DNA of 64,000 nucleotides from a virus. Shown piece after piece: positions 1,837 to 52,756 of this stretch (positions within the stretch are counted from its first letter, which is position 1; each line of letters starts with the position of its first letter). Location: IMG/VR virus record IMGVR_UViG_3300024312_000003, positions 96,001 through 160,000 of that record, one strand, 5' to 3'. The notes beneath the pieces were generated by a model. That model ran no database searches. It was not told where the DNA came from and saw only the letters and a program-made list of their open reading frames with translations. The position numbers and the translations under genes are program-made.

Positions 1837-4800
1837 TTATAACCAATATTCCCCGGAAGGATTATAAGTCCAATAATCAACTCTTGTCATTTCGTCAGAT
1901 CCTGAATTCATTGTAAAACCAGGGTGACCGCCGGACAGCGGAGTTGGATCAGTGTAAGTTGTAAACAGAACACCGTTTATATAAACCTCAAAGGTATCGT
2001 TAGCAGTAGGTACAACTTTAAGAATTGTATCGGCTGTTAAAGTATAAGGTATTGATGTTTGTTCAACCCAATTTCTGGTTATTCTTAAATTAGAAGAATT
2101 GAAGAAGAATCCATAAGCTTGAGTCATTGTTGCTCTGAGCACAGCACCAACTTCAAAATTGAATGTGGTTTGAAGCGGTTGTTTTATCCTCATTTCTACT
2201 TGGGACATCGGACCTGTTTCAGCATCTACAAACCAGCAGTATCCTCCGGCGTTTTTAGAAACATAACTGCCTCTAAGATATCCTTCTCCATCGCAATAGA
2301 AATAGTCTAAAGCTGGATAACTACCGAAGGCTAAAGAGCCAGCCCATCTAGAATCTAATGTTCTAACAGCAGTACCTGATGAAGCTGAGAAATTAAACTT
2401 TCTATAAGCGTCCGGATCAGCTGTGGCTGCCTTAACATAAACAGTTTCAGAGTACTCAGACCACGATTCTCCTATAGAGTTCGTCGCAGTAATTAAACAT
2501 CTTAGTCCAGCACCAACCATATCTAGCGTTGGGGTAGTCTCGTAAGTGTTTTGACCTATCAGTAAAGTATTACCAGCATACCACTGATAGGTGTAACCAA
2601 CAGGACTGTTCGTCCATGTACCAGTTGTTACTCTTACTGGGAATCCGGATTGTTTAGATCCAGATATTGTTGCCAAAGTAACAATTTGAGGAGTGGTAGC
2701 CGATACAATAACTATACCTGCTGATATGGCTGTAGTTAAGCCGGCATCGTTAACTGCTGTTTCTACGAAATAAACCTCATAACCTATATCGTCGTTGGTA
2801 CTAGTGTATGTATCGCTAGTTTCACCGACAATTAAAGAAGATATTCCGTTTAATTTTCGCATCCATTGAATTGTACTTGAATCAGCTTTAGGACTATATC
2901 TGGCCTTATTAGCTGTTAGTACATTTCCTATTACTCTGTTACCGGTGACATAAGCTTGCGAAATAGCTTTAGGGGGAGGCATCTCCATATAAGGATAATT
3001 GATGGGATCTCCTTGTGGAGTAAGTCCTCTTTCAGTTATCATTGGATGATACTGCGCGTTTAGATTGTAATAAACGCTTGTGGGTAGCAGACTTACATCA
3101 TCATCATCGTAAGATACAAAGCCGGGATCGACATCTTGATTAGTGATGTTTAGATCCACTAAAGATCCTTTATAAGAAATACCCTGTAGAACAGATATGC
3201 CATCTCTGTTTGCAGTAGCTGGATCATAAGCCGTAGGCACAACGTTTCTTGCAAAGTTCGTATCGCTAGCTTCTAATACCCCAGCGTACGCAAAGAAACC
3301 TAACTTGGGAAGTTTACCAGTTGGAGTTCTTTTACCAGAGTAAAGTATGTTATTCTTAGCATAGAACTTCATTGGTTCTCTGGTATTCCATGCGCTGAAT
3401 AATGAGGAATTAAAACTATCGTAATAAACGTTATTAAAGAAACCGGAAGATGAGTCGGCTCTTATTGCGACGACATTCTTATAAAAGAAAACAATGCCCC
3501 CGCCAGTTACTTGATTGTGCTCTGAATAGAACGGACCATCGCCGTGACCTATTACATTAGCAACATTGTCCATGAAGAATGTATTGCCGTAAATGTAAGG
3601 GAAATTAGCTAACTTAATTCCAAATACATCAGTAATAGTTAGAGCATCCACATACGTTGCTTGAGGCTCTCTTAAAGATATGCAGTTTTGTGGACCAGAG
3701 CGAATATGGTTGTATCTGAATATCTGACCAGTCGATCTATCTTTGATAGAGTCGCCTGCGTTACCGTTCTTATTTGCACCTATGTAGTTGAATTCATAAA
3801 TGGTGTTAGTTGATTCAGAATAACTATTGTGCGTACCGGTATCACCAACTTCACCATTATCATAGATGTAGTTAAAGAGTATATGTAAATTCTTTAGCTG
3901 AAATCTAGGACCGTTATTAGGATTAGAGTTAGCAAATATACCACAACTATTATCGTGAATTTCACAACCAGAAATGGTAATGTAATCCCCACCCATGACC
4001 TTAATGCCAGCGCTGAAATGACCCCAACGTGTTTGTTGGCCATACATGTTGATAAATTCATTATCCTTATAGGCGGCCGTAATCTTTAGTCCATGGATAT
4101 GGATGTATCCTGGCCGATAAGATGTACTAGCACCGATACCTAATGGTTGAATGATGTTAATTAAACCAGCCCCAGTGTGGGTATCGTTAAGTCTGGAATT
4201 AACCGGATCGTTTTCAGCTCCGATACCATTTAGTTCAGGTAATTGACCTTGTGGTCCTCTGACTCCAATGATTTCAATCCATCTGGTTATTTCACCCCTA
4301 ACATGTACTGGTAGTACGTGTCTGTAAGGTTGTGCTCTCCAATAAACAAATACTCTATCACCAGGTCTGAGGTTTAACCAAGGAACTTCGCTTAATTCAG
4401 CATATTCCATTCCTGGACCTACTCTGAAATCATAACTTGTTAAATCAACACCGATTCGGTTTGGAAGAACGTGATAGTACTTCCAATTTATGTCAGTTAT
4501 ATCGACTGCATTGAAAACAGGCTGATCTCTTAAATTAAAAGGATTAGGAGCTATCTGTCCTGGTGTAAATTCACCATTGCGATACTTCTTAAACCAAGTT
4601 ATGGTATCTTGTCTGGTTGGCACTGGTGGCAATATACTCATGATTAAGTTAGCGTTAGATTCACTAACTCCATCACTTATTCGATACGTCACCATTGGAA
4701 TAAGACCGTAATAACCATTGGTTGGACTTACAGACCAGGCGCCATTTGAATCTAATGAGAATAAACCGGCAGCTCCAAAATCAATAACATCCCCAGGCTG

Positions 4801-5463
4801 ATATGTGGTGGCATGACCTGAAACCGTAAGAGACACCACTGTCAGTGGAGATCCTTCGTAATCAAAGTCGTTAGTTAAGACATTGCCGGTAGAAGTTACA
4901 TTAGGTGGTAATGCAACAGAATCAGTCATACCGACAGGACCTTGATTGGTGCCTGTTATGTTAATTGTTAGCTTTTCTAATTTAGAACCAGTTGATCTAG
5001 CATCCAATACTCTGTAGTAAATTTCTTCACTTGCGACCTGTCCTTGAGTCAGAGCACTACCTGCAGATCCAATTGTAAAAATCCAAGCACCGTCGCTGTT
5101 TAGTCTGAAAGTTCCATAAACGGTATTGAAAGTAGTACCAACAGAACGATTTCCTCCAGAATAAACTATTTCATTAACGGATATGAAATCTCCCTCTGGA
5201 TCGCTATCGTTGGTTAAAACGTTGCCTGTTATTATTCTATTTGCATCAATAAGAGTTGCGGTATCCGGATTAGTAACCGGCATTTTATTAATGTTCTGTA
5301 ATTGCTGGAATACTGAGTTACCGGCAATTGGTTTTACTTCTCCGTTTGGATACTTTATGTATAAAGTTTCAGTAACAAAAGAATATCCTAATTCTTTCAA
5401 TAATAGATCTGACGGATCAGGCTGTGCCTTTGTCTCCGAAGATCTTATGGTAAATCTACTCAT
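1837..5463 (-). CDS. Large tail-fibre/depolymerase-like protein 1 (Ig-like repeats + right-handed beta-helix + C-terminal domain)
   Basis: Probable start MSRFTIR at 5463. GNVLTNDxDxEGD cadherin/VCBS-like repeats, beta-helix-type repeats (ISGCEIHDNSCGIF, FEFNYI, FRYNHI), Ig-like modules (GTWTNSPVGYTYQWY). Paralogous to the next two genes. Confidence 0.75.
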   Translation of the reverse strand: MSRFTIRSSETKAQPDPSDLLLKELGYSFVTETLYIKYPNGEVKPIAGNSVFQQLQNINKMPVTNPDTATLIDANRIITGNVLTNDSDPEGDFISVNEIVYSGGNRSVGTTFNTVYGTFRLNSDGAWIFTIGSAGSALTQGQVASEEIYYRVLDARSTGSKLEKLTINITGTNQGPVGMTDSVALPPNVTSTGNVLTNDFDYEGSPLTVVSLTVSGHATTYQPGDVIDFGAAGLFSLDSNGAWSVSPTNGYYGLIPMVTYRISDGVSESNANLIMSILPPVPTRQDTITWFKKYRNGEFTPGQIAPNPFNLRDQPVFNAVDITDINWKYYHVLPNRIGVDLTSYDFRVGPGMEYAELSEVPWLNLRPGDRVFVYWRAQPYRHVLPVHVRGEITRWIEIIGVRGPQGQLPELNGIGAENDPVNSRLNDTHTGAGLINIIQPLGIGASTSYRPGYIHIHGLKITAAYKDNEFINMYGQQTRWGHFSAGIKVMGGDYITISGCEIHDNSCGIFANSNPNNGPRFQLKNLHILFNYIYDNGEVGDTGTHNSYSESTNTIYEFNYIGANKNGNAGDSIKDRSTGQIFRYNHIRSGPQNCISLREPQATYVDALTITDVFGIKLANFPYIYGNTFFMDNVANVIGHGDGPFYSEHNQVTGGGIVFFYKNVVAIRADSSSGFFNNVYYDSFNSSLFSAWNTREPMKFYAKNNILYSGKRTPTGKLPKLGFFAYAGVLEASDTNFARNVVPTAYDPATANRDGISVLQGISYKGSLVDLNITNQDVDPGFVSYDDDDVSLLPTSVYYNLNAQYHPMITERGLTPQGDPINYPYMEMPPPKAISQAYVTGNRVIGNVLTANKARYSPKADSSTIQWMRKLNGISSLIVGETSDTYTSTNDDIGYEVYFVETAVNDAGLTTAISAGIVIVSATTPQIVTLATISGSKQSGFPVRVTTGTWTNSPVGYTYQWYAGNTLLIGQNTYETTPTLDMVGAGLRCLITATNSIGESWSEYSETVYVKAATADPDAYRKFNFSASSGTAVRTLDSRWAGSLAFGSYPALDYFYCDGEGYLRGSYVSKNAGGYCWFVDAETGPMSQVEMRIKQPLQTTFNFEVGAVLRATMTQAYGFFFNSSNLRITRNWVEQTSIPYTLTADTILKVVPTANDTFEVYINGVLFTTYTDPTPLSGGHPGFTMNSGSDEMTRVDYWTYNPSGEYWL

Positions 5464-5518
5464 GATCGTCCTTGTTTTTTGGGTTGACTGTATCACACAC
5501 GATACTTCAAAAAATACA

Positions 5519-5548
5519 GCATAAAGAGGGGAGATCCCCTCTTTATGC
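5519..5548. terminator. Terminator-family repeat
   Basis: GCATAAAGAGGGG-AGAT-CCCCTCTTTATGC inverted repeat between fibre genes. Confidence 0.85.
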
Positions 5549-5549
5549 T

Positions 5550-8500
5550 TTAGGCGTTATCAGTCCAGTATGTGAATTCATTAGGTAAGTCGTTATCGCC
5601 TATACCTATTGACAATCCAGGATACCCTCCAGACAATGGGGAAGGATCATCATAAGTACTGAGTAATGCATCATTTACATAAATGCTGATGACACTACCA
5701 GATCTAGTTGCTCTTAGCTTATTAAGAGTTGCTTGACCATGATTCCATGCATTGATATAAGTTCCATTGCGATGGAGAGTTACCTCAGTTGTACCGCAAT
5801 TTATTTCATATCCTTGCACAGCATCAAAGTTCAAGACTACTCCTAAATTACCGCCAGAGTTCCTGAAGTTCATTCCTATTTCAACAGACACATTATTGCC
5901 TTGAGAATTTTCATACCAAGCTACACCACCATTCCAAAGTGAAACGTATGAGGCAGTTAATGCTCCATTCCCAGTACAGAAACAGTAATCGTGAGGATAT
6001 TGTCCTGCAGTTTGTCTGCTGTTCCACTTGGAATTTAGAGTCTTAAGACTGGTTCCATTTAATGCGCTGAAATTAAACTTACCAGTGGCATCAGGGTCAG
6101 TTATGGCCGTTATAACCGTTATCAGATTAGAGTCAGCTTCACCAAATTCACCACCAGAATTAGTTGCTTTAATTCTAGCAAAAATACTCTTTCCAATATA
6201 AGAATTGTCTGGAGTAAATGAAGTTGAAGTCTGTCCTGCTATTAGTGTTGAACTACCGTTGGTCTCTCTAACATACCACTGAACAGCGTAACTAATTGGA
6301 GTATTGGTCCAGTTACCATTATTACTTACAGTAACAGCAGAACCACTCTGACCACTTCCAGTTATAGTCGGTGCTGTTGTATTTTGAGGAGTAGTGGTTG
6401 TGGCTATATGGAATAAATCCGATTCAGATACAATGGTAGTCGATCCATAATGGAAAGTACATCTGAATTTAAGATCCATACCTCCGTCATCACTCACAAC
6501 TGTGTAGCTTAATGATGTCTGTCCGGCAATAGGATTTGTTCCACGATACCATTGATAATCAACAGAATCAAACTGAGGGCCTATTATTGCAGGTATTGCG
6601 GTGAGTACTGATCCAATTCCATGCGAGCCAGTTATACTCGGAACAGCATGAACAACAGGTGTTCTTTTCTTACCATAGGGTGCTTGTACTGGTAATCCTA
6701 ATGGCGTTAGTGCTCTAAGAATGACTTCGTTTTTGTGCGCCCCGTTTAAAGTAAAATACGGGCTCGTATTCATTATGCTAAAGTCATTATTTTGAATACT
6801 AGCAAATCCTGGATCAGCATTACTTAACGTTACATTCAGATCAGTTAGAGTTCCAGTGTATGGATTACCTTGGTTAACACTACCCGCATTTGGAGTTGCA
6901 GCTGGGTTAATCTCAGTAGGTTTAAAACTGTTTGTGAAATTGGAATAGAAATCAGCAATACCCTGATATCGGAAAGCCGAGAAAGGAGGAACAGTTCCGC
7001 CTTGAGTAGCTGCCTTAGAGTAATACAAATTATTGTAAGAAACTCCGGTTTGTAATGTTCTGGTATTCCAGAAATCAAATGTCGGAACCCCACCAGCATC
7101 GGTGTGTGCGCCAGCATAATCATATCCCGCTGCATCAAAATTAGCAACGCAGATATTATTGTAGAAGAAACACTTACCGTTTCCTCTTACTTGATTTTCG
7201 AATCCACCATATACGAAAATACCATCGCCGTGAGCAACCATACTTGCTTCGTTTATGAACTCAAATTGATTTGCATAAACGTAACTATAGTTAGCACAAT
7301 TAACTCCTAAAGAGTCTACTTGAGTAAAGCCTATGCTAACAGTTGCTTGTGGATCACGCAAAGACATTGCATTTGCAGAGCCGCTCTTGAAATAATTGTA
7401 TCGGAAAATATGTCCAGTCGATCTATCTTTGATCGAATCACCGGCATTACCTGGTTTATTAGGTTCAAAGTAGTTAAATTCATAAATCATACTTATTGCT
7501 TCAGTGTATGAATTATGAGTACCATAAGCCTCCTGTCCAGTCGCACCGTTATTGCCAAAACGATTAAACAACATATGGCAGAATCTAGACACCAATCTTT
7601 CTCCGTTACCTGGAGTTGAATTGATGAATACTCCAATTCCGTTATCATGGAAATAACAACCGGAAACAATCAGATAATCAACTCCAGCGACCTTGATACC
7701 GGCTACAAACTCACCCCAATCTTTATTAGCACCGGTGTAGTCCGTTATTCTTGAAGGAGTCATTGTATTTCTAATTTCTAAACCATGGATATGGATATAA
7801 CCTGGTTTAAAGAAATTATTAGACCTACCGTCTAGTGGTGGTACGATAACTATCATACCTGAACTAGAGTGAGTGCTGTTCAAAGAACTTGTACTGGCTA
7901 CTTCAATAGCGTTTGTTGCGTCCAATATTGGTTTGTTACCGTTAGAATCTTTAACACCAATAATTTCAATCCACTTTGCAGACGTTCCTCTGTTTTGCAG
8001 AGTGATAACATGATTATACGGCGTGGCTCTATAGTAGACAAATACTCTATCACCAGGAAGCAATTTATCCCAAGGAATATCTCCGATTTCAGCATATTCC
8101 ATTCCTGGACCTACTCTGAAGTCAAGACAGCTGGAATCAGCAGCATTTCTATTTGGGAACCATGGTCTATAGTCCCAATCTGGATAGGTCCAATTTACAG
8201 CGTATGATGGATCGACTCTTACTTGAACTGGATTGGTAGCAATGTTTACCGGGGTAACGTCACCATTCTCATATTGATTAAACCAATTAACAGCTTGAGT
8301 ATATTCGTTACTAACGTTAGGCAAGACAGTAACAACAATGCTTCCAGAAGTAACTGTCGCATTTCCATCTGTTACCGAGTACTGTATTGTTGGGAAGTAA
8401 CCAGAATAATCAGGATCGGCAGTAATAGACCACGTTCCATTAGCATTTACTGTAACACTACCAACGTCAGTTAAATTAACTGTAGAACCCGGAGTTCTGT

Positions 8501-9221
8501 TAGTCGGATCACCACCAACTCTAAATGACGAAATAACCAATGAATCACCATCAGCATCAGTGTCATTGAGAAGAGCATTTCCTGAAACTGTACTGCCTGC
8601 AACAACCGTACCGGAATCAGCAACAACTATAGGTGATTCATTTCCACCCAGTATGTTTATTGTTAAAACTGACAGAGTCGATTGATTTGCATTTGAATCT
8701 ACGATTCCGTATTGGATGGTTTCTGTAACACTATCTCCAATCTTCATTGTTCTGGAAGCTTGATTCAGTGTGAAAGTCCACGAACCATTTGATTGAATCG
8801 TAAAAGTACCGTGGGTTGTTGTAAATGCTTGCCCGACTGTTCTTGATTGTAGTGCGTAACTTACACGATTAACAGTGCGAGTATCATTTTCCGCATCAGT
8901 GTCGTTGGTTAAAACGTTACCAGTAACTTGACCGTTATTTGATTCAGTTATACTGGCCGAATCCGGGTTAGCTACTGGGTTTTGATTAATTGGGCCGGCT
9001 CCTTCTAGTACACTTACTCTTCCTGTCAAATCAGCTATGGCTGTTTGATGTTGTTGAACTAATTGTGTAAAGTAATTACCGCCTATTTCTCTAACTACCC
9101 CGTCAGGATATCTCAAAAAAAGTTTATCTGATAGATACGAGTATCCTTGTTCGTTTCTTAACAAGTCAGTTGGAGCGGGCGCTGTTTTATTTGCTGTGGT
9201 TCTTAATAATGGTCTTGACAT
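5550..9221 (-). CDS. Large tail-fibre/depolymerase-like protein 2
   Basis: 1223 aa with the same architecture as protein 1; shares FRVGPGMEYAE, GDRVFVY, DSIKDRSTGxIFRYN. Confidence 0.75.
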   Translation of the reverse strand: MSRPLLRTTANKTAPAPTDLLRNEQGYSYLSDKLFLRYPDGVVREIGGNYFTQLVQQHQTAIADLTGRVSVLEGAGPINQNPVANPDSASITESNNGQVTGNVLTNDTDAENDTRTVNRVSYALQSRTVGQAFTTTHGTFTIQSNGSWTFTLNQASRTMKIGDSVTETIQYGIVDSNANQSTLSVLTINILGGNESPIVVADSGTVVAGSTVSGNALLNDTDADGDSLVISSFRVGGDPTNRTPGSTVNLTDVGSVTVNANGTWSITADPDYSGYFPTIQYSVTDGNATVTSGSIVVTVLPNVSNEYTQAVNWFNQYENGDVTPVNIATNPVQVRVDPSYAVNWTYPDWDYRPWFPNRNAADSSCLDFRVGPGMEYAEIGDIPWDKLLPGDRVFVYYRATPYNHVITLQNRGTSAKWIEIIGVKDSNGNKPILDATNAIEVASTSSLNSTHSSSGMIVIVPPLDGRSNNFFKPGYIHIHGLEIRNTMTPSRITDYTGANKDWGEFVAGIKVAGVDYLIVSGCYFHDNGIGVFINSTPGNGERLVSRFCHMLFNRFGNNGATGQEAYGTHNSYTEAISMIYEFNYFEPNKPGNAGDSIKDRSTGHIFRYNYFKSGSANAMSLRDPQATVSIGFTQVDSLGVNCANYSYVYANQFEFINEASMVAHGDGIFVYGGFENQVRGNGKCFFYNNICVANFDAAGYDYAGAHTDAGGVPTFDFWNTRTLQTGVSYNNLYYSKAATQGGTVPPFSAFRYQGIADFYSNFTNSFKPTEINPAATPNAGSVNQGNPYTGTLTDLNVTLSNADPGFASIQNNDFSIMNTSPYFTLNGAHKNEVILRALTPLGLPVQAPYGKKRTPVVHAVPSITGSHGIGSVLTAIPAIIGPQFDSVDYQWYRGTNPIAGQTSLSYTVVSDDGGMDLKFRCTFHYGSTTIVSESDLFHIATTTTPQNTTAPTITGSGQSGSAVTVSNNGNWTNTPISYAVQWYVRETNGSSTLIAGQTSTSFTPDNSYIGKSIFARIKATNSGGEFGEADSNLITVITAITDPDATGKFNFSALNGTSLKTLNSKWNSRQTAGQYPHDYCFCTGNGALTASYVSLWNGGVAWYENSQGNNVSVEIGMNFRNSGGNLGVVLNFDAVQGYEINCGTTEVTLHRNGTYINAWNHGQATLNKLRATRSGSVISIYVNDALLSTYDDPSPLSGGYPGLSIGIGDNDLPNEFTYWTDNA

Positions 9222-9248
9222 ATTTTCTCTCTATTTAAACTTTAAACT

Positions 9249-9275
9249 TAAGAGGAGGGAAATTCCCTCCTCTTA
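9249..9275. terminator. Terminator-family hairpin
   Basis: TAAGAGGAGGGAA-A-TTCCCTCCTCTTA inverted repeat. Confidence 0.8.
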
Positions 9276-9276
9276 C

Positions 9277-12200
9277 TTATAACGGATCCAATATAACGGC
9301 TATTTTAACAAGATATTGCTGTCCACCATATACTGCAGTTAATGTAGTATTACCAACATCTGGAGACACTCCGTGTGCTACCAAATGAGTTGGATCTACT
9401 TGACTTAACAGTAGTCTGGCCCCAACTATCCACGGACTGCTTATTGTCGGGGCTTCATTACCCCACGATCTACCTGCGGAGAATCCAGCAATTACTCTTT
9501 GATTTGCAGATGTTGCTGATATGGTTATTTCTCCATTCACACCCGATGCACCTTGTGAATCACCAACGCTGTTAACATAAGTACCAGCCACTTCATAAAC
9601 AACAACGCTACATGTATCTTGAACATTAGACGTTCCAGTTACTGTAAAGTTAGAGCCAGTATTTGTGACAACACAAGTATATAGTTGATAAAAAGCAGAA
9701 TTATATCCAATAGAAATATCTTGTCTCTTTACCCATGCATTACCAAAATTATCACCGATACTCTGCCCATTCATTACAAAAGCAACAAGAGTGTTACCTA
9801 CTACAGGCGCAATGCTCATGACAACTGCGGCAGTCATTGCTGGAGTCGGCCATGTGTCTGATCCAGATGCAATTTGAACAATTTCTGCTGCTGATGCATT
9901 TGTAACTGTCCTAACATCGGAATAAACAACGGTCGTACCTACAACATTAGTTGCATCATATCTGACTCTTATTTGTCCAAGATGTGATGCTGTCAGTAAC
10001 AATGTTGGACCGTTTTCACCAACAATATCGCTCCAGCCTGAACCAGTATTTACTTGCCACTGTCTGATTACTGTATCTGGATTATAAAGCCAAGACGGAT
10101 CAGTGACTGATACTGTTTCACCAGGGACGTATATATCTAAAGAATCTAAAGCCGGTTGTTGAGCAGCCACAGGAGCAACCCTAGGAGGAGCTGTAGGATC
10201 TCTTTCTAAAGCTCCTAAGTCAGTTGATCCAATATTAGTCGGTCTTAAAGATATACCATTTGTTCTTGGATTAGGTTGTCCTTGAACAGGGTGATCTGTA
10301 CCGACACTGGCAGGAATACCAGCAGGTAATGAACTATATATGTCTATTGCAGGTGATCCTGCTCCAAGTGACAAGTCGTGAAATTCTTTATTGATAAATA
10401 CTGGATCAGAAGCAATAATTGTTCCTAATCTATTAACAGCGTGGGATGATGAAGTAGCACCACGAGCAGCACTGGCATCTAGGATGGTGGTATATCCCTG
10501 TATTAGGTTTGTACCTCTCAAATTGAGAGTACCTGCCAAATACAGTAGATTCAATCTGGCGATAGAACCATCAAACAAAATCACATTACCCCATGCTTCA
10601 CACACTGTTTCAGGCCATGATAGCTGTATGAAGAATTGGTCGGCTTGATTGTAATTACTGTTATGGTAGTAAGTATTGCTAAAGAAATACAATTTCTTTC
10701 TGTGATTTACAGCAGCTGATCCACTGCCTTCCCACTCACCACCGCCTTCTGACCCATCTGATCCAAAGTGAATAGGTCTCCAAGCATTACCTGATAAATT
10801 CTCATCATTGATCAGAACATTACCATAAACGTAGTCAATGCCAAAATCAGGATATTCGACAAACGCATCTGTAAATTCAGGATGCACCATGTCAATCATT
10901 CTGGATGTAGACTCTATCCAATTATAACGAATGACTTCTTTACCGACTCTACTCTTATAGGTAGATCCACCAGCTCCATTGCGACCTCTGCCAAGGTAGT
11001 TACCTTCTATTAAAGCGTCGTAGCCTTGAATGTAACATCCGTGTTCATAACCGCTACCATTTACACCATTACCGTAAATGCGGTTATATTGTATTTTAAT
11101 TCTCTGACAAGATTCACCAATACCGCCTGGTTTTGACATGGTGAATATGCCTTGAGAATTATCGTATATGACGCAATTTCTAACAGTCACATCACTGGTA
11201 GGTTGTATCCAAATACCTGCGGAGAATCCATACTGTACAGTAGCACCTAGTGAATTGGTATAGGAAGCATCAGCAGCAGCTCCTCTTATTTCCAAATTCT
11301 GGATAATGATCCATTCTGGATTTTCACTAGTTGGAGTTCCAGGTCTTCTTTTTATCGTAATTAGACCAAAGCCTTGATTATCTGTAGTAAATATGTCGGT
11401 ATCATTACCAGGCATGCTTCCTACAGCAGTCGTCGCATTTCTACCATCGATGATTGGTCTATTACCATCCTCATCAGTTACACCGTTTATGATGAAAGGT
11501 GCACTAGCTGTCGCCTTAACGGCAAAAGCAAATTTCGTCTTGTAAGGTAAGGCTCTGTGGTGTATGTTAACAACATCACCAGCCATCATACTCGCCCAAG
11601 GTACAGTGTCTAATTCTTCATACGGAAAATCTGGACCAACATCGAATGTTCTTGTTCCAGTTATTCTGGTTGTAACTGGATTGCTATCGATGTTTATCAA
11701 ACCACCTTGCAATACAATTGTAAGTATTCCAGTTCTCGAATCCGTTCCATCGGTTACTAAATATCTGATAATTATGTTGCCAGACATTTCAGAACCAGTT
11801 CTGTTACGAATCCAAGTTCCATCTGCGTTAAGTCTGAAGTTACCATAATCAGGAACTATAACAGTGGTTCCCGGAGAATGAGTACCAGCAACGCCATCAA
11901 TTGTAAATGACACTATGGATAAAGTATCTGATTCATAATCTGAATCGTTACTCAAGACATTACCTTGCTGTGATGTTGCTCCTTGAGTAGATACTAAAGT
12001 ATCATTAGATACAACGGGAGAACTATTTGTGCCGATTATGTTTACTTCTAATTCGCTGAATTTTCTACCACCAGATGTGTCTTCAACAGCGCATAGGAAA
12101 AATTCACTTACAGACTCACCTATTTTTAAAGCACGAGCAGCATTGTTTGGCGTGAAAGAGAAACTACCGTTTCTATTAATAATCATACTACCATAAGCAG

Positions 12201-12564
12201 TACTAAAAGAAACTCCAACATTTCTCGTAATAGAGTTGTTTTCGACATACGTTACATACAGCTCATCTCCGACGTCCGCATCGCTGTCATTCATCAGAAT
12301 ATTACCGTTTATGGTGTTATCTGAATCATTACCGCTGAATAAATCATCAATTGCGTTTGGTAATTTGTTTATTTGAAGAAGAGCTTGTTCTAGCGATGAT
12401 ACTCTGCTAAGTAACTCCTCACCACCAATTTGTACAATACTTCCGTCTGGTTTCTTTATGACTAATTTACCAGATACAAAAGAATATCCCATCTCTCTGA
12501 TAAGCATGTCAGTAGGATCTATATTTGGTTTATTTTCTGTAGACCTTGTTAAAAATCTATTCAT
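9277..12564 (-). CDS. Large tail-fibre/depolymerase-like protein 3
   Basis: 1095 aa; shared N-terminal anchor (DPTDMLIREMGYSFVSGKL), GNVLSND repeats, beta-helix repeats (VRNCVIYDNSQGIF, IEGNYL, IRYNWI); divergent C-terminus. Confidence 0.75.
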   Translation of the reverse strand: MNRFLTRSTENKPNIDPTDMLIREMGYSFVSGKLVIKKPDGSIVQIGGEELLSRVSSLEQALLQINKLPNAIDDLFSGNDSDNTINGNILMNDSDADVGDELYVTYVENNSITRNVGVSFSTAYGSMIINRNGSFSFTPNNAARALKIGESVSEFFLCAVEDTSGGRKFSELEVNIIGTNSSPVVSNDTLVSTQGATSQQGNVLSNDSDYESDTLSIVSFTIDGVAGTHSPGTTVIVPDYGNFRLNADGTWIRNRTGSEMSGNIIIRYLVTDGTDSRTGILTIVLQGGLINIDSNPVTTRITGTRTFDVGPDFPYEELDTVPWASMMAGDVVNIHHRALPYKTKFAFAVKATASAPFIINGVTDEDGNRPIIDGRNATTAVGSMPGNDTDIFTTDNQGFGLITIKRRPGTPTSENPEWIIIQNLEIRGAAADASYTNSLGATVQYGFSAGIWIQPTSDVTVRNCVIYDNSQGIFTMSKPGGIGESCQRIKIQYNRIYGNGVNGSGYEHGCYIQGYDALIEGNYLGRGRNGAGGSTYKSRVGKEVIRYNWIESTSRMIDMVHPEFTDAFVEYPDFGIDYVYGNVLINDENLSGNAWRPIHFGSDGSEGGGEWEGSGSAAVNHRKKLYFFSNTYYHNSNYNQADQFFIQLSWPETVCEAWGNVILFDGSIARLNLLYLAGTLNLRGTNLIQGYTTILDASAARGATSSSHAVNRLGTIIASDPVFINKEFHDLSLGAGSPAIDIYSSLPAGIPASVGTDHPVQGQPNPRTNGISLRPTNIGSTDLGALERDPTAPPRVAPVAAQQPALDSLDIYVPGETVSVTDPSWLYNPDTVIRQWQVNTGSGWSDIVGENGPTLLLTASHLGQIRVRYDATNVVGTTVVYSDVRTVTNASAAEIVQIASGSDTWPTPAMTAAVVMSIAPVVGNTLVAFVMNGQSIGDNFGNAWVKRQDISIGYNSAFYQLYTCVVTNTGSNFTVTGTSNVQDTCSVVVYEVAGTYVNSVGDSQGASGVNGEITISATSANQRVIAGFSAGRSWGNEAPTISSPWIVGARLLLSQVDPTHLVAHGVSPDVGNTTLTAVYGGQQYLVKIAVILDPL

Positions 12565-21197: not shown

Positions 21198-21309
21198 TGG
21201 ACTTTCCTTATGTCGGTGGACACGAAATAATAAACAACATATAGAGGAGGGAGATTTCTCTCCCTCCTCGCATTCCTGCTCTTTCCTCAATCAAAGAATT
21301 TAACTGTCT

Positions 21310-21580
21310 TTTTCAAATCCATTACAGATTTGATACTCATCAATTAAATCGGCAGGAATATCAGATTCAATAGGTTCGGATCATTATCACCTACTTGTTA
21401 TTAAACCTGATAACTAGGTTTTGCTCAAGCGGCCAGGCGCTGAGCAAACGTGCTGTCGTTTGCGGCAGTTAAATTGAGATTTGTATGTTTCGATTGATTT
21501 CTCAATCTCTAACGGAGTTCTCATACTTACTCCGAGTAGTAATCTCCACTAGCTCACCCTGTCGAAACCAGATCTGGCCC
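21310..21580 (-). ncRNA. ssrA: tmRNA coding piece of a permuted two-piece gene; tag (A)NDSTFAQRLAA at 21425-21463
   Basis: Begins GGGCCAGATCTGGTTTCGACAGGG; pk1 (CGGAG/CTCCG + GTATG/CATAC); TTAACTGCC-GCA AAC GAC AGC ACG TTT GCT CAG CGC CTG GCC GCT TGA; helix over the tag end; three further pseudoknot-like elements. The 3' boundary is approximate. Confidence 0.9.
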
Positions 21581-21611
21581 ACCTAAACAAACACAATATT
21601 GAATCTGCTTA

Positions 21612-21695
21612 GGTGGACCAGGTGGGAATCGAACCCACGTCCAGAATGCATTTGCTTTGATTTTCAGTTTCGGTATTTCTACCTCTACACACTAC
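21612..21695 (-). ncRNA. ssrA: tmRNA acceptor piece of the permuted gene
   Basis: TTCTGGACGTGGGTTCGATTCCCACCTGGTCCACC (T-arm plus acceptor 3' strand) lies upstream of the 5' end; CTGGTCC pairs with GGGCCAG including G3.U70. The 5' boundary is approximate. Confidence 0.9.
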
Positions 21696-21698
21696 CAT

Positions 21699-22196
21699 TT
21701 ATACTTCAGTCCAAGTTCTGCCATTTCTAATATCAGAAACAGTTGATTTGGATATGTTGTATTTATCAACATAGTAACTGTATGGTTCTTTTCCGTATTT
21801 GATGTTACTAACCTGCTCTATTGTCAAATGCGAATTATTTCTAACATTAATACCTTTAGCAGATCGACCTTTATTTACCATATCATCCATATTGTCTTGA
21901 TGAGTGCCTGCAAATAAATGATCAGGAGCAACACATTTACGATTATCACAATGATGACAAATCATAATACTGGGGTCAAGAATCTGACCACCAATAAATA
22001 ATTGAAAAGCCCATCTATGAGCGCGTATTTTAGACTGTTCCTCTCTAGATCCAACTGATATCTGACCGTATCCATCTTGATTGAGTTTACCTGTCCACTC
22101 TATACAATCATTATTTGGATTAAGTTGAAGTTTGTCTATAAAACGTTTTAAGACTTTTTCATCAAATACGATATCTGGATCTAGAGAATTTGACAT
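21699..22196 (-). CDS. HNH homing endonuclease
   Basis: CIEWTG...GYGQI...RAHRWAF...ICHHCDNRKCVAPDHLFAGTHQDNMDDMVNKGR; probable start MSNSLD. Confidence 0.9.
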   Translation of the reverse strand: MSNSLDPDIVFDEKVLKRFIDKLQLNPNNDCIEWTGKLNQDGYGQISVGSREEQSKIRAHRWAFQLFIGGQILDPSIMICHHCDNRKCVAPDHLFAGTHQDNMDDMVNKGRSAKGINVRNNSHLTIEQVSNIKYGKEPYSYYVDKYNISKSTVSDIRNGRTWTEV

Positions 22197-22204
22197 GATG
22201 CGTC

Positions 22205-22392
22205 CAAGAATTATTGTACGGAATTGTGCCACCCCCGTACGGGAGGCGCAAGGAGATCGAGGGTTTCTAACTCAATCATCGGCGCCCGCTAAAGAGTCCT
22301 TTCGAGACTCTACCTACCACGACTTTACGACCAACTGCAACATCGACGTAAACTTGTTGATTTCTCTCTACAACAAGTAGTGATGTTGTAAT
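22205..22392 (-). ncRNA. GC-rich structured RNA candidate upstream of the HNH gene
   Basis: Nested stems including GAGTCTC-GAAA-GGACTC, GTACGG/CCGTAC, GGCGC/GCGCC, CAACATC/GATGTTG. Confidence 0.55.
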
Positions 22393-47498: not shown

Positions 47499-49901
47499 AT
47501 GAGTAAAATAAGTGAAATGGGTCTTGCTGGTCCATTATCAGGTAATGAATTATTAGAAATAATTCAGAATGGTCAAAACAAAAGAATTAGATTAAGTGAC
47601 TTAGATCTAACCGCAGCATCAGCATATGAGATTGCTGTTAATAACGGATTCGTAGGTACTGAGGCAGATTGGCTGCTATCTCTTAAAGGGGAGAATGGAC
47701 TAGATGGTGCTCCGGGCACACCTGGAGCAATAGGTCCTGTTGGTCCTCAAGGTCTGTCCGGTCCATCCGCTTATCAAATAGCTATTTTAGCTGGATTTAA
47801 TGGCACTCAAGCCGAATGGTTAAACAGTCTAAAAGGAGCCGATGGTGCACCCGGACCACAGGGACCACAAGGGGTCCCTGGATTAAATGGTGGTGCTGAC
47901 GGATTGTCAGCTTACGAAGTAGCTGTACAAGACGGATTCATTGGTACTCAGTCGGAATGGCTGCAATCATTAAGAGGACCTCAAGGTGAAGTCGGACCTC
48001 AAGGTATACCTGGTCCGACTGGTATTCAAGGACCTGCGGGTCCGCAGGGACCACAAGGTCCCGCAGGTCCAGTTGGTCCAGCCGGAGACGCTGGCCCCCA
48101 AGGACCAATTGGATTAGCTGGACCCCAGGGTCCACAAGGTCCTCAGGGTATCCAGGGTAAATCCAATTATGATTTAGCTGTAGATTCTGGTTTTCAAGGA
48201 ACACTCCAGGATTTTGTAGCCACGATGAATGGTGTCAAAGGCGACACTGGAGATTCTGCCTATCAACTAGCAGTCAACGCTGGATTTATAGGAACTGAAT
48301 TACAATGGCTACAATCGCTAACTGGTCCAATAGGACCACAAGGGTTACAAGGACCAGTAGGACCACAAGGACCTACTGGTCCTAAAGGTGATCAAGGTGA
48401 TACCGGACCACAAGGACCGGCTGGTCCTCAAGGTCCTCAAGGTATAAAAGGAGATGAAGGCATTCAGGGTCCTCAAGGACCTGCAGGTCCTCAAGGACTG
48501 CAAGGTATACAAGGTATACAAGGGGAAGTGGGTCCTCAAGGACCGGTTGGAACAACCGGTCCAGCTGGTCCTAAGGGTGATACAGGTAATCAAGGACCGA
48601 TAGGTAAATCGGCCTACCAGATAGCTCTGGATACTGGATACGTCGGTACGGAAAATCAATGGTTACAAACATTGATAGGTAGTCAAGGACCACAGGGTCC
48701 ACAAGGACCAGTGGGTCCTCAAGGAGCAGCTGGTAGTAACCTACTCGGAACTTTTGCAAATACAGCTACATTACAAACTTCACATCCGGCCGCGACCAAT
48801 ACAGGATCTGTTGCCGTAGTTGGTTCGTCAAGTCCTTTTAAAATAAGAATAGCAAATCAAAACGCATGGGTACCTGCTAGCTCGATAGTAAAGAATGTAT
48901 CGGCATCCAGAACTATAACCGAGCATGATGATGGCGATATTCTCAATATCACCAATCCAAACGTGACTTTGACAATAGCTGAATCCATATACAATCACAA
49001 AGATCTAAAAATAAAGATACTTGTAAATGACAATACTGTTTTTGCGCCAGAATCAGCAAATGTGAAAATTAACGGACAAAGTAGTTCAATTACTGTTAAT
49101 AAGTCTTCTGGTTTAATTGCTGAATTATTTGGAACTGGTAATTTAAATAATGAATTTACCATAGCTCATAGTGGTAGCGGTGGGTCTGGTGGAACTGGTT
49201 CTGGAGGTTTTGTCTCTACAGCTCCAACTATAGTTGATACTGATAAATTCTCTGCCAGATATGATTCAGCTTCAACAACTCTTGGGAATGCTCAAGCTGG
49301 AGACATGATTGTGGTCTTCTTATCAAAGTGGGCCAGTGATTCTGAAGCAGTAATGACAATCAGCGATAACCAAGGTAATGTATATACTAAAATAGATTCA
49401 AGCATTAACTTAGATGGTGCTGGTTTCCGTTATACTGCGTTCTATACTTTCTGCACTCAAGGAGCGGTTTCTACAACAATAACCACTCCTTTAGTCGACT
49501 ATAACAGCATGATATCTCTTCTCATAAGAGGAGTTGATTCTCAAAATCCATTTGATGACGGCGGTACAAGGAAAAGAGCCTACCTAGATGGAAGTGGTTC
49601 TCTTACCATAGATAATTCAGTTACCACATTCAGTGATGATTTGGTACTGGCTTTAATAGGTTGGTACAATAGTTCGATGGTTATGACTATTGATCCAGAG
49701 TGGCCGGTTATAGATGGGTTTAACGATGGATCGAGCCAAACCAATCAAATGGTTGCTATAGGTAAAAGAGTAGATGCTGTTGGTAATTATGACCCTACCA
49801 TAAGCACTGGGTCTAATTCGACTAGAATTAGTGGAATATCTTTGGTTCTTAAAGGTATGTCAGATTCATCACAATCTGTCATCGATCCTGGTACGTTCTA
49901 A
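47499..49901 (+). CDS. Collagen-like fibre protein C (800 aa, opposite strand)
   Basis: MSKISEM N-module, six SAY-type repeats with Gly-X-Y runs, C-terminal beta domain, ends VIDPGTF. Confidence 0.85.
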
Positions 49902-49938: not shown

Positions 49939-51531
49939 TTATTTTGTTATAAATATTTTATTATTTAAAGAGGTACCAACTGTTCTTGTAAATCTTAGAT
50001 TGGTTATTGCTGTTTCTGAGGGCAAGGGCGCCCATCTGAATGATCCATAATCCGTATATGTATCATAAACAGTATATGCACCACCATTATTGGTAGAATA
50101 TTCAACAAGAATTGTTACCGCTCCAGCAGTCAAATCCGGAACAATATCGACATCAAAAGGTACTGAATTATAGCTTGACGTATTAATAACAACAGGATTA
50201 TTACCCAACAGTGTAACTTCAGGTTTCTGAATAGAATTATCTGCTTTAGTACCCTGAGCAGCGGTAGCGAAGTCTGCAATATTTGAATACAGGACATCAC
50301 CTAAAGTAGCTTGATAATCGATGAAAAATTGTTCATCTAATTTTGAATCTACTTGCTGTTTTAATAATCTGCCTTGATTAGCTGATAAAGCTTCAGTGCT
50401 CGATGTACTGGATAGCGTATCATTGATTACTGATGGTCCTGCGGGGCCTTGTTCACCAGTATCGCCTTTAGGACCAGCAGGACCCTGTAAGCCTTGAATA
50501 CCCTGAGGACCTGCAGGTCCTTGTGGACCAATAGGTCCAGATATACCTTGTTCGCCTTGCGGACCTATTGGTCCAGCTGGTCCAGTTAATCCAGCTGGAC
50601 CCTGGGGTCCAGTGTCACCCTGATCACCCTTAAGAGTTAGTAACCATTGAGTTTCATCTCCTCCAAATCCAGCCAATACCGCTACTTCATAAGCTGACAA
50701 TCCATCGGTTCCGGCTGGACCCTGAATTCCCTGTGGACCTTGGATTCCCGCAGGTCCTTGAGGACCCTGTGGACCCGCTGGTCCTTGAGGACCAGTATTA
50801 CCAATACTACCTTGCGGACCTGCTGGCCCAACGGCGCCAGTATCTCCTTTGGGTCCTATTGGGCCTGGATCACCTTGATCACCTTTTAATCCTTGAGGAC
50901 CCGCTGGTCCTATTGGACCTTGTGGTCCTATTAAACTAGCTAACCACTGCGTTTCGGTACCAATAAATCCATTATCTAAAGCATGCTGATATGATGTTTT
51001 ACCAGGTGAACCTTGTGGACCTATAGACCCTTGTGGACCCTGGGGTCCGGAAGTTCCTTGAGGACCTTGTGGACCAATAGGACCAGCTAACGATTGTAAC
51101 CACTCGGCTTGAGTACCTGTAAATCCACTATCAACAGCGTGTTGGTAAGACGATTTTCCTGGGTTACCTTGTGGTCCTTGTGGACCAACGGGTCCTATAT
51201 CACCAGTGTCTCCCTTTAATCCTTTTAGACTGTTTAACCAATCATTCTGAGTTCCTACGAAACCAGACATTAGCGCTATTTCATAAGCAGACTGTCCAGT
51301 AGGTCCTTGTTGACCTTCTGGACCTCTCTGTCCAATTAGACTGGCTAACCATTGCGTCTCTGTACCAACGAAACCATTTTGAATCGCGACATCGTAAGCG
51401 GACTTACCGTTAGGAATAAGAGACAAAAGAGAAGATACCGTTATTCTCCTATTGTATCCTTCTTGTACTATTTCAATTAACTCTATACCTGATAATGGAC
51501 TAGCAAGGTCCATTGTAGAAATCTTAGACAT
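49939..51531 (-). CDS. Collagen-like fibre protein D
   Basis: Start re-assigned to MSKISTMDL (the tracked start crosses a terminator); SAY repeats and long Gly-X-Y runs. Confidence 0.85.
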
Positions 51532-51601
51532 ACTTGTTCTCCATTTAAAGACAGTACTGCATATAAATCCAGCATAAAGAGAGGGGAATCCCCTCTCTTT
51601 A

Positions 51602-52756
51602 TTACTTACCCAATATCCGACTATTGGAAGGTCTATCAAACTGATAAATTTTAGAAGATAGAACTTGATTAACAATGCCTACCTTATATTGGTTACTGTC
51701 TTGTTCTTGAGGAGAGCGCTGCGTATCAGAGATACGAATCCACTCGTTCATGAACGACAGGGGATTTTTCTGAACCAAAGTATGTTGACTTTGATTTTCC
51801 AAACCCAAAAGATAGTAAACAGGATAAGCTACAAAACGAGTCCAATTCTGGAACGTTTGCAGGGTACCACCAGGCAATTGCTTACCATCTGGTAGAATTG
51901 TTTCAAGCCAGGTTAGCTCGGATGTTACAATCTCATCAAGAAGACTGATGATTGTTGGTCTGAGATTTTCAAGAGCTTTCTTTCCGCGTTCGGTTGCCAA
52001 TTCTACTTTGAGAATTTCTTGACCAAACTTAGCATGGATCTCGTATTCATCCTGAGCAATCTTCTGGACAGCCATACCGATTGGTTGGAACAAACCAGTG
52101 TTGCAAATTGAGAAAGTTACTGCAAAAGATGCCATGAATTGGATTCTCTCCAAAGCATAGTTCGCAATCAATCCGAGGATCACATATTCGTAAAGTTCTT
52201 GAGAGTATGAAATCTGACCAAGTGCATATTTATGACTAAGCTCGTACAGCTTAGAAAAAATAGATCCCACTACACGCATGCGTTCGTGAGCTTCTTTGAC
52301 TTTTGTGATTTCTTTGAAAACATCACTGGGATCATCAAAGGAGAGTCGTACAATTTCTGAATAAGTCAGAGCATGTAGATTCTCATTATCCATGATTCGA
52401 CCATATCCAGTCCATACTTCACTAGAAGTAACAAACGGAGCCATGATAGGTACAAAACACCTGGATGCTACTGTGTCTGCTTCCCATTGCCACGCAATGG
52501 TTTTTATCATTGCATCGTAGATATCGCGACTACATGTCTTAAATTCAGTATTACAAGTACTGAAATCAAATTCAATTTCATCCCAATCAAGAGTCTTTAG
52601 AGTCTTATAGATTTTCCAAAGTTCTGGATGAACTCGATTGATGGAATCGTAAAACCCAGGTTGTTCTCCAAAGAAGATGGGTGTCTTCTCGTATGTCGAT
52701 TTTTCAGTATTGAAAATCTTATTAGATACTTCAGAATCAATAACGATGTCAGTCAT
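51602..52756 (-). CDS. nrdB: Ribonucleotide reductase class Ia beta subunit
   Basis: [37 protein letters not shown] diiron ligands; SPQEQD..QY tail. Confidence 0.92.

What the first reader, a model, noticed from the sequence alone, without database searches (positions are those of the whole stretch)
21310..21695. Circularly permuted (two-piece) tmRNA in a phage, apparently keeping all four pseudoknots
Seen: on the minus strand the tmRNA 3' end (T-arm, CTGGTCC-ACC, 21612) comes before the 5' end (GGGCCAG, 21580). The 31-nt intervening segment extends the acceptor stem into an 18-bp hairpin (CTGGTCCACCTAAGCAGA/TTTGTTTAGGTGGGCCAG). The G3.U70 alanine determinant is present. The coding piece has pk1 with an inserted hairpin, tag ANDSTFAQRLAA*, then pk2 (21397-21419), pk3 (21363-21395) and pk4 (21327-21363), and no T-arm follows before the terminator at 21245-21270. 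Known: permuted ssrA occurs in alphaproteobacteria, some cyanobacteria and some betaproteobacteria, with reduced pseudoknot number. Inference: an independent, possibly recent permutation with the break after pk4. The unusual QRLAA tag may redirect proteolysis, and the two-piece form could evade host anti-tRNA/tmRNA nucleases or replace a cleaved host tmRNA.
Basis: partly seen in the sequence, partly recalled or inferred. Interest (0 to 1): 0.92.

Follow-up and report, generated by a model that had tools for sequence, protein, structure and literature searches.

The report
Two-piece tmRNA gene of a jumbo phage
This large uncultured phage carries a genuine split ("two-piece") gene for tmRNA, the RNA that rescues stalled ribosomes. 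That kind of gene is already known in phages, and the claimed four pseudoknots are not there: comparison with related phages shows ordinary nested stem-loops.

Summary
The core observation holds. ARAGORN and two Rfam models call a circularly permuted tmRNA at 21236-21698 (minus strand). The order is acceptor piece, 31-nt spacer closing a long hairpin, then coding piece. G3.U70 and A73 are present, the tag is (A)ANDSTFAQRLAA, and a terminator follows.

I found eight related copies in other metagenomes. Five close copies give 27 compensatory base-pair changes over 115 pairs, so the RNA is under selection for structure.

- **Permutation:** it is not independent or recent. The tRNA-like domain and spacer are of the betaproteobacterial type and are shared with at least 95 other IMG/VR phage-contig genes.
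- **Novelty of kind:** phage two-piece tmRNAs are published (Buchholz 2022), and this scan has met them before on other DNA.
- **Tag:** it is conventional. It ends in LAA, and RLAA endings are common in phage copies.
- **Pseudoknots:** pk1 with an inserted hairpin is supported. The proposed pk2 and pk4 helices break in relatives, and pk3 has one non-varying stem.

What is there instead is a 150-nt 3' domain of nested, covarying helices with a conserved 14-nt loop. That domain defines a small subfamily of large-phage tmRNAs and is the only modestly new feature. No SmpB gene was found, so the phage presumably uses the host's.

The parts
21612..21698 (-). Acceptor piece. It holds the 5' strand of the distal P2 helix (21696-21691), a small GNRA-loop hairpin (21683-21672), the P2a strand (21648-21643), the T-arm (21638-21622), the acceptor 3' strand (21621-21615), discriminator A (21614) and CC (21613-21612). 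The final A of CCA is not encoded.
   Evidence: RF04321 and RF01850 alignments. Covariation in P2a (2 pairs), T stem (2 pairs) and acceptor stem. The 5' end is inferred only: sequence upstream of about 21667 varies among relatives.
21581..21611 (-). Intervening segment, removed on maturation. It extends the acceptor stem into a long hairpin and holds no ORF.
   Evidence: Fold of 21570-21625: 19 continuous pairs, -33 kcal/mol, z = -8. The helix is 97% paired in 5 relatives with 4 compensatory pairs. L112 carries a wholly different acceptor stem yet keeps G3.U70. Removal by RNase P and 3' trimming is inferred from Caulobacter.
21236..21580 (-). Coding piece. It runs from the acceptor 5' strand (21580-21574) through the D-loop analogue, the P2 strands (21560-21555 and 21543-21535), pk1, the tag and the 3' domain to the terminator.
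   Evidence: The 3' end was not determined. It is the terminator if the RNA is untrimmed (about 345 nt), or about 308 nt if it is trimmed to helix H2.
21483..21534 (-). Pseudoknot 1. Stem 1 is 21534-21529 with 21518-21513. Stem 2 is 21526-21522 with 21487-21483. A hairpin with a GAAA loop (21507-21502 with 21497-21492) is inserted in loop 3.
   Evidence: Stem 1 is 100% paired with 3 compensatory pairs, and the inserted hairpin is 100% paired with 1. Stem 2 can be drawn in both sequence variants of this module but shifts by about 2 nt in the MAFFT alignment, so it is tentative. The distance from the D-loop analogue to the resume codon is 102 nt here against 72-74 nt in most phage copies.
21425..21463 (-). 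Tag reading frame: GCA resume codon, ANDSTFAQRLAA, then TGA. Its last part forms helix 5 (21448-21440 with 21428-21420).
   Evidence: ARAGORN. The same peptide, with synonymous codon differences, occurs in L102-L105. L114 has LVA instead of LAA. GCA rather than the preceding GCC is taken as the resume codon, because L102 and L103 have no Ala codon in front.
21359..21412 (-). 3' domain, helix H1: 14 bp (21412-21399 with 21372-21359). It encloses a conserved 14-nt loop motif (21391-21378) that is closed by GGU/ACC.
   Evidence: H1 is 98.6% paired in 5 relatives with 5 compensatory pairs. The equivalent helix is present in L105 and L103 with 2 compensatory pairs. The motif is identical in win, L104, L105, L103 and L110, with one A-to-G change in L112 and L114.
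21273..21358 (-). 3' domain, compound stem-loop. H2 (21358-21352 with 21279-21273) encloses H3 (21350-21341 with 21306-21297), and H3 encloses hairpin H4 (21333-21327 with 21319-21313).
   Evidence: H2 is perfectly Watson-Crick in four different sequence versions across eight relatives. H3 and H4 each have 2 compensatory pairs. The minimum-energy fold reproduces H1-H4, z = -5.8.
21244..21269 (-). Intrinsic terminator: an 11-bp G+C-rich stem, a GAAA loop and a T-rich tail.
   Evidence: It is conserved in relatives with 1 compensatory pair. The next gene starts at ATG 21197, as shown by 80% identity to the L104 protein from residue 1.

Best explanation
This is a working-type, circularly permuted tmRNA (ssrA) gene of the betaproteobacterial two-piece kind. 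It is carried by an uncultured jumbo phage distantly related to Ralstonia and Burkholderia jumbo phages.

How it most likely works (inferred):
1. One precursor is transcribed: acceptor piece, 31-nt spacer, coding piece, terminator.
2. The acceptor stem and spacer fold into a long hairpin next to the T-arm.
3. Host RNase P cuts 5' of G21580. 3' trimming and CCA addition finish the acceptor piece after 21612.
4. The two RNAs stay together through the 7-bp acceptor stem and the P2 helices.
5. Host AlaRS charges the RNA through G3.U70 and A73, and host SmpB binds it, since no phage SmpB was found.
6. On stalled ribosomes the RNA adds (A)ANDSTFAQRLAA. The LAA end sends the product to ClpXP-type proteases.
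7. The likely benefit is that ribosome rescue keeps running while the phage takes over translation. The phage also brings 9 tRNAs.

Downstream of the tag the RNA carries two compound stem-loop domains (H1, and H2-H3-H4), not pseudoknots 2-4. Together they are about as long as the pk2-pk4 arc of one-piece tmRNAs.

Shown: gene order, helices and their covariation, tag conservation, synteny in related phages.
Inferred: processing, charging, tagging and the benefit to the phage.
For: - **Detection:** ARAGORN tmRNA*. RF04321 at 76.3 bits over its full length and RF01850 at 91.4 bits over the tRNA-like domain plus spacer.
- **Relatives:** L102, L103, L104 and L105 all pass RF04321's cut-off. Closer ones (L110, L112, L114) were reached through the neighbouring gene.
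- **Covariation:** the full model on five relatives gives 115 pairs, 96% of cells paired and 27 pairs with changes on both sides. No shuffle of 500 reached this, and slid controls gave at most 4.
- **Charging determinants under selection:** L112 has four changed acceptor-stem pairs but keeps G3.U70.
- **Tag:** the peptide is kept across relatives whose aligned RNA columns average only about 51% identity, with synonymous codon changes.
- **Synteny:** the flanking genes in L104 are 63% and 80% identical to those here.
- **Phage context:**
- **Published precedent:** two-piece tmRNAs in phages (PMC9004378), tmRNAs in huge phages (PMC7162821), processing and function of two-piece tmRNA (reviewed in PMC3985003).
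Against: - There are no expression, processing or tagging data.
- No sigma-70-type promoter was found. This says little for a phiKZ/RP12-like phage, which probably uses its own RNA polymerase.
- The host is unknown, so host SmpB/AlaRS compatibility is assumed.
- The record is only about 65% complete, so a phage SmpB cannot be excluded.
- RF01850 matches only positions 75-172 of 331, so the flanks are not typical of bacterial beta-type genes.
- My nested model was derived from the same sequences it was tested on. The five closest relatives are near kin, and some differences look like swapped modules rather than independent substitutions.
- Tag conservation is partly an ascertainment effect, because L102-L105 were found by a pattern for that peptide.
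Confidence: 0.85

Rival explanations
1. One reading: an independent, recent permutation of a one-piece tmRNA, broken after pk4, that still has pk1 to pk4.
For: The coding piece is long, with about 150 nt between the stop codon and the terminator. That is roughly the size of a pk2-pk4 region. Small crossing helices can be drawn in this A+T-rich sequence.
Against: - The helices drawn for pk2 and pk4 break in relatives and show 1 compensatory change in 31 pairs, no better than shuffles.
- The same bases form nested helices, with 12 compensatory pairs between just two sequences.
- The tRNA-like domain and spacer match the beta-type permuted model and at least 95 other phage-contig genes. The permuted layout is therefore old and shared.
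- No Rfam family reached significance in the 3' region at E up to 10.
Confidence: 0.03
2. A decoy rather than a rescuer. The phage RNA would soak up host SmpB or compete with host tmRNA, inhibiting or rewiring host trans-translation, and tagging would not be its purpose.
For: No SmpB gene is present in this record or in the related 205-kb phage record. A tRNA-like-domain-only tmRNA of mycobacteriophage DS6A resembles molecules that inhibit tmRNA (PMC4131195).
Against: The whole mRNA-like part is kept: pk1, a resume codon, a conserved 12-codon tag ending in LAA or LVA, helix 5 and a stop codon. A decoy would not need a conserved tag peptide.
Confidence: 0.07
3. The 3' domain (H1 to H4, 21412-21273) is not part of the mature tmRNA. 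It would be a separate element on the same transcript, either a processed small RNA or a stabilising or regulatory 3' structure.
For: - Other phage and bacterial beta-type genes end soon after one pseudoknot.
- The domain has its own conserved loop motif and no Rfam match.
- Some other phage two-piece tmRNA genes are linked to regulatory RNA, for example the glutamine riboswitch in phage Melnitz (PMC9004378).
Against: In all eight relatives the domain follows the stop codon directly, at a fixed distance, with no terminator or promoter-like break between. In L102 a tRNA gene follows it rather than a protein gene, so it is not a leader for the downstream gene.
Confidence: 0.12
4. An artefact: misassembly at the spacer, host DNA in a phage bin, or a tmRNA fragment left at a prophage integration site.
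For: tmRNA genes are common integration sites. The record is a metagenome assembly.
Against: The same permuted gene lies between the same phage genes in independent assemblies from other samples. The gene is complete. It sits 20 kb or more inside a 180-kb contig that carries phage replication and tail genes.
Confidence: 0.01

Closest known systems
Betaproteobacterial two-piece tmRNA (Rfam RF01850; Sharkady and Williams 2004, cited in PMC3985003)
   Same: Permuted gene order, the sequence of the tRNA-like domain, a spacer that prolongs the acceptor stem (ACC-UAAG pairing with UUAGGU), pk1 before the tag, and a tag of the ANDxxFAxxLAA type.
   Different: - Only model positions 75-172 of 331 match.
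- pk1 carries an extra hairpin.
- A 150-nt domain of nested helices follows the tag, where bacterial and most phage copies have a single pk2.
- The gene is in a phage. No bacterial genome among 185,579 species representatives has this tag or this acceptor stem.
Published phage-encoded two-piece tmRNAs: OM43 phage Melnitz, pelagimyophages and cyanophages (Buchholz 2022, PMC9004378)
   Same: A phage-borne, ARAGORN-called permuted ssrA with a complete tag, in large tailed phages that also carry tRNAs.
   Different: Melnitz's gene groups with alphaproteobacterial (SAR11) ssrA, and 50 of the 53 two-piece structures counted come from marine or aquatic phages. Melnitz has a glutamine riboswitch next to its gene. 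This one is beta-type, sits in a phage whose helicase is closest to Ralstonia and Burkholderia jumbo phages, and has no BLAST match in 50,697 deposited phage records.
Beta-type permuted tmRNAs on IMG/VR phage contigs
   Same: The tRNA-like domain is 74-85% identical, with spacer motifs in common. Tags often end in RLAA.
   Different: Those genes have a 72-74-nt pk1 region and one classical pk2 after the tag. None matches this gene's pk1 or 3' domain. Their spacers range from 32 to 224 nt.
Caulobacter crescentus two-piece tmRNA (Keiler 2000, cited in PMC3985003 and PMC3968760)
   Same: The only kind for which processing into two RNAs and tagging have been shown. It is the basis for the mechanism inferred here.
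   Different: It belongs to the alphaproteobacterial lineage, a separate permutation event, and is bacterial.

Membership tests
tmRNA, permuted (two-piece) form | Gene order: T-arm and acceptor 3' strand lie upstream of the acceptor 5' strand, with a spacer between. | tested here: met
   ARAGORN tmRNA*. RF04321 at 76.3 bits against a cut-off of 47, full length. Sequence read.
tmRNA, permuted (two-piece) form | Alanine identity: G3.U70 in a 7-bp acceptor stem, discriminator A. | tested here: met
   Read. G3.U70 is kept in all five relatives even where four other acceptor pairs change (pair 91-130).
tmRNA, permuted (two-piece) form | A helix P2 joins the two pieces. | tested here: met
   P2a (21648-21643 with 21560-21555) is 100% paired with 2 compensatory pairs. 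The distal helix is 80% paired; the alignment is poor at the 5' end.
tmRNA, permuted (two-piece) form | pk1 lies upstream of an Ala resume codon, followed by a short tag ORF with a hydrophobic end and a stop codon. | tested here: met
   pk1 stem 1 has 3 compensatory pairs; stem 2 is tentative. The tag ANDSTFAQRLAA plus stop is conserved in relatives.
tmRNA, permuted (two-piece) form | Processing into two RNAs, alanylation, SmpB binding and tagging. | not testable with these tools
   No transcript or protein data are available. No SmpB gene was found in the 180-kb record.
Betaproteobacterial tmRNA family RF01850 | A match to the whole family model, including the lineage-specific 5' and 3' parts. 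| tested here: inconclusive
   The score passes the cut-off (91.4 against 84), but only model positions 75-172 of 331 align. The tRNA-like domain is of this type and the flanks are not recognisably so.
Four-pseudoknot tmRNA architecture (pk1 to pk4) | Three further H-type pseudoknots lie between the tag and the 3' end of the coding part. | tested here: not met
Nested helices H1-H4 on the same bases are 97-100% paired with 10 compensatory pairs. No conserved crossing helix was found. A weak 4-bp candidate is untested.

The most novel reading that the evidence does not exclude
The 150-nt 3' domain is a phage-specific functional module added to a two-piece tmRNA. Its conserved loop, two tandem (G/A)UGAU units at 21391-21378, would be a docking site for a host or phage factor, or for the 3' end of 16S rRNA. 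From memory, the loop is complementary to that 3' end in two registers. Such docking would change when or where trans-translation acts in infected cells. The near-repeat strands of H1 and H4, which both stay complementary to one partner strand, could make it a two-state switch.
Probability: 0.12. Interest if true: 0.6.

Novelty: new variant of a known kind. Interest (0 to 1): 0.3.

Why it matters
Phage-borne tmRNAs are known but none has been tested, so what they do for a phage is an open question. This copy adds three modest points.

1. The betaproteobacterial two-piece type is widespread on phage contigs, not only in bacteria.
2. A small group of large phages has replaced the usual single downstream pseudoknot by a large nested-helix domain with a conserved loop. 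That gives a defined element to delete or mutate.
3. Close relatives differ by whole modules: the tRNA-like domain in L112 and the pk1 module in L110, L114 and L104. This points to recombination inside the gene.

It does not show a new origin of permuted tmRNA, and it does not show a two-piece tmRNA with four pseudoknots.

Tried and rejected
- BLAST of the gene against 50,697 deposited phage records found no match.
- Pattern scans for the exact acceptor stem found nothing in viral, metagenome or genome collections.
- A search for relatives with the neighbouring AAA ATPase in IMG/VR found none.
- A scan for the 3'-domain motif in IMG/VR returned only L106, the record already found as L103.
- The 100 IMG/VR tmRNA loci do not match pk1 or the 3' domain.
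- RNAalifold on a MAFFT alignment of the five distant tails was uninformative, because helix interiors differ in length.
- An automatic longest-helix search picked competing helices and failed. I replaced it with explicit checks.
- Records behind L102 to L105 are not held for whole-record searches.
Their content is cited through reviews.
- I considered a classical pk2 formed by bases just upstream of H1 pairing into the H1 loop (ACCUA with UAGGU). It is possible in win and L104 but has no counterpart in L105 or L103.
- I considered pairing of the first bases after the stop codon with a UUUG inside H2. It is only 4 bp, and the same bases belong to helix 5.
- Ralstonia phage RP12, the nearest cultured relative by helicase, has no permuted tmRNA.

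Full report
**What is there**

On the minus strand, ARAGORN calls a permuted tmRNA at 21334-21703 with tag AANDSTFAQRLAA. Rfam gives two matches above the curated cut-offs:
- RF04321 (tmRNA_permuted): 76.3 bits against a cut-off of 47, over the full model length, at 21683-21425.
- RF01850 (beta_tmRNA): 91.4 bits against 84, but only for model positions 75-172 of 331. That stretch is the tRNA-like domain plus the spacer.

- T-arm at 21638-21622.
- Acceptor 3' strand at 21621-21615, discriminator A at 21614, CC at 21613-21612.
- A 31-nt spacer at 21611-21581.
- Acceptor 5' strand from G21580, with G3 opposite U70.

Acceptor stem and spacer fold into one hairpin of 19 continuous pairs (-33 kcal/mol, z = -8.0). 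The tag frame is 21463-21425. A terminator lies at 21269-21244, and the next gene starts at ATG 21197.

**Context**

The window is part of a 180,490-bp IMG/VR virus record, about 65% complete, 38.5% G+C, with 9 tRNA genes. Its genes are phage genes: ribonucleotide reductase, helicase and collagen-like tail fibres. The helicase is closest to Ralstonia phages RP12 and RP31 (45% identity) and Burkholderia phage FLC9, and then to phiKZ-like jumbo phages. No SmpB gene is present.

**Is the kind new? No.**

- Buchholz et al. 2022 (PMC9004378) described a two-piece ssrA in phage Melnitz. They counted 53 ARAGORN-called two-piece tmRNA structures among 18,146 phage genomes.
- Al-Shayeb et al. 2020 (PMC7162821) list tmRNAs in huge phages.
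- The 2025 tmRNA database holds 79 phage sequences (PMC11915505).
- A strict pattern for the permuted tRNA-like domain found 26 IMG/VR contigs, all but one called tmRNA* by ARAGORN. A second pattern reached the limit of 80 contigs. Together they give 95 ARAGORN calls.
- This scan's own notebook holds many earlier notes on phage permuted tmRNAs from other genomes.
- These genes share this gene's tRNA-like domain at 74-85% identity, and also spacer motifs. The permuted layout is therefore inherited, not a recent independent event.
- Tags ending in RLAA are common among them, and the tag here ends in the canonical LAA.

**Relatives of this particular gene**

None of the 100 IMG/VR loci matches its pk1 or its 3' region. 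A degenerate pattern for ANDxxFAQRLAA found four relatives, all above the RF04321 cut-off:
- L104, a 3.2-kb contig.
- L105.
- L102, on a 227-kb contig inside a cluster of 18 tRNA genes.
- L103, the same record as L106, on a 205-kb phage record.

No bacterial species genome has this tag or this acceptor stem. L104 is syntenic: the upstream HNH endonuclease is 63% identical and the downstream protein 80% identical. Homologues of that downstream protein led to three closer copies, L110, L112 and L114.

**Structure by comparison**

I tested a full model on win, L110, L112, L114 and L104 (alignment A5). It has 115 pairs. 96.2% of cells are paired and 27 pairs changed on both sides. No shuffle of 500 reached this, and slid controls gave at most 4.

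| Helix | Cells paired | Compensatory pairs |
|---|---|---|
| P2a | 100% | 2 |
| T stem | 100% | 2 |
| Acceptor stem plus spacer | 97% | 4 |
| pk1 stem 1 | 100% | 3 |
| Hairpin inserted in pk1 | 100% | 1 |
| H1 | 98.6% | 5 |
| H2 | 100% | 1 |
| H3 | 100% | 2 |
| H4 | 97% | 2 |
| Terminator | 98% | 1 |

- L112 has a different acceptor stem and spacer but keeps G3.U70.
- pk1 stem 2 can be drawn in both variants of the pk1 module (5 bp each), but at a shifted register in the alignment. I call it tentative.
- H1 and H2 are also present in the distant relatives. H2 is perfectly paired in four different sequence versions. H1 and an inner hairpin covary between L105 and L103.
- The minimum-energy fold of the tail alone gives the same H1-H4 (z = -5.8).

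**The four-pseudoknot claim**

- On two sequences they lose 10 of 62 cells and show 1 compensatory change, a result reached by 255 of 500 shuffles.
- On five sequences they again show 1 compensatory change, and one pk2 pair is broken in 3 of 5.
- The bases of 'pk2' belong to the 5' strand of H1. The 3' strand of 'pk4' stem 2 belongs to hairpin H4.
- The first stem of 'pk3' is compatible with the data but never varies, and it has no convincing second stem.

The RNA therefore has one supported pseudoknot (pk1) and a nested 3' domain. This fits the literature: two-piece tmRNAs have fewer pseudoknots than one-piece ones (PMC3968760, PMC3985003).

The 3' domain is unusual in size. Bacterial beta-type and most phage copies have one compact pk2 and then end.

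**Limits**

- The nested model was derived from the sequences used to test it.
- The five close relatives are kin, and some differences are module swaps rather than independent substitutions.
- I cannot exclude tertiary or short crossing contacts.
- The conserved loop at 21391-21378 has no identified partner.
- There are no expression data.

**Verdict**

The identification as a phage two-piece tmRNA is right. The features that made it look exceptional are not supported. It is a member of a known kind with a lineage-specific 3' domain.

Noticed in passing
window 21699-22232 (-): An HNH endonuclease gene (PF13392, phrog_59) ends 1-2 nt before the tmRNA gene. L104 has it too (63% identity). L110 and L112 have unrelated small genes there, and L114 has no called gene. 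The 5' flank of the tmRNA gene is therefore a variable insertion spot and the HNH looks mobile.
   Followed up: partly
window 21378-21391 (-): The conserved loop in the tmRNA 3' domain is made of two tandem (G/A)UGAU units. It is identical in five relatives, with one A-to-G change in L112 and L114, and is divergent in L102. From memory it is complementary in two registers to the 16S rRNA 3' end. It also reads like a Shine-Dalgarno sequence plus AUG opening a 4-5 codon ORF. No partner was found.
   Followed up: partly
window 21362-21370, 21325-21333 and 21313-21321 (-): The 3' strand of H1 and the 5' strand of H4 are near-repeats. Both stay complementary to the 3' strand of H4 in win and L104 (9 bp, 2 compensatory and 2 one-sided changes). 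This could be an alternative pairing or just shared ancestry.
   Followed up: no
alignment A5; L112:2498-2865, L110:2498-2867, L114:2571-2940: The tmRNA genes of close relatives are mosaic. L112 has a different tRNA-like domain and spacer, resembling the common IMG/VR type, joined to this gene's pk1 and 3' domain. L110, L114 and L104 share a second variant of the whole pk1 module. L114 and L115 encode LVA instead of LAA at the tag end.
   Followed up: partly
L105:1827-2216 (-) and IMG/VR loci such as L075, L064, L083: Spacer lengths in phage permuted tmRNA genes range from about 31 nt to more than 220 nt. L105 has about 190 nt. The long ones were not examined for nested genes, which earlier notes of this scan report for other phages.
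   Followed up: no
window 58959-59255 (-): A group I intron (RF00028, 94 bits) interrupts the thymidylate synthase gene. The upstream exon ORF 59243-60196 covers Pfam positions 1-155 of 266. Dihydrofolate reductase and thymidylate kinase genes lie on either side. L104 also has a group I intron about 700 nt upstream of its tmRNA.
   Followed up: partly
window 1837-12564 (-): Three tandem genes encode 1,095-1,223-residue proteins with bacterial cadherin-like and Ig-like domains. One also has a NosD-type beta-helix. They are probably fibre or adhesin proteins.
   Followed up: no
window 47499-49901 (+) and 49939-51675 (-): Two convergent genes encode collagen-like repeat proteins that hit many tail-fibre PHROGs.
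   Followed up: no
L102:2096-7699: The distant relative L102 (227-kb contig) has its tmRNA inside a cluster of 18 tRNA genes. One of them has an odd anticodon loop that ARAGORN could not assign.
   Followed up: no
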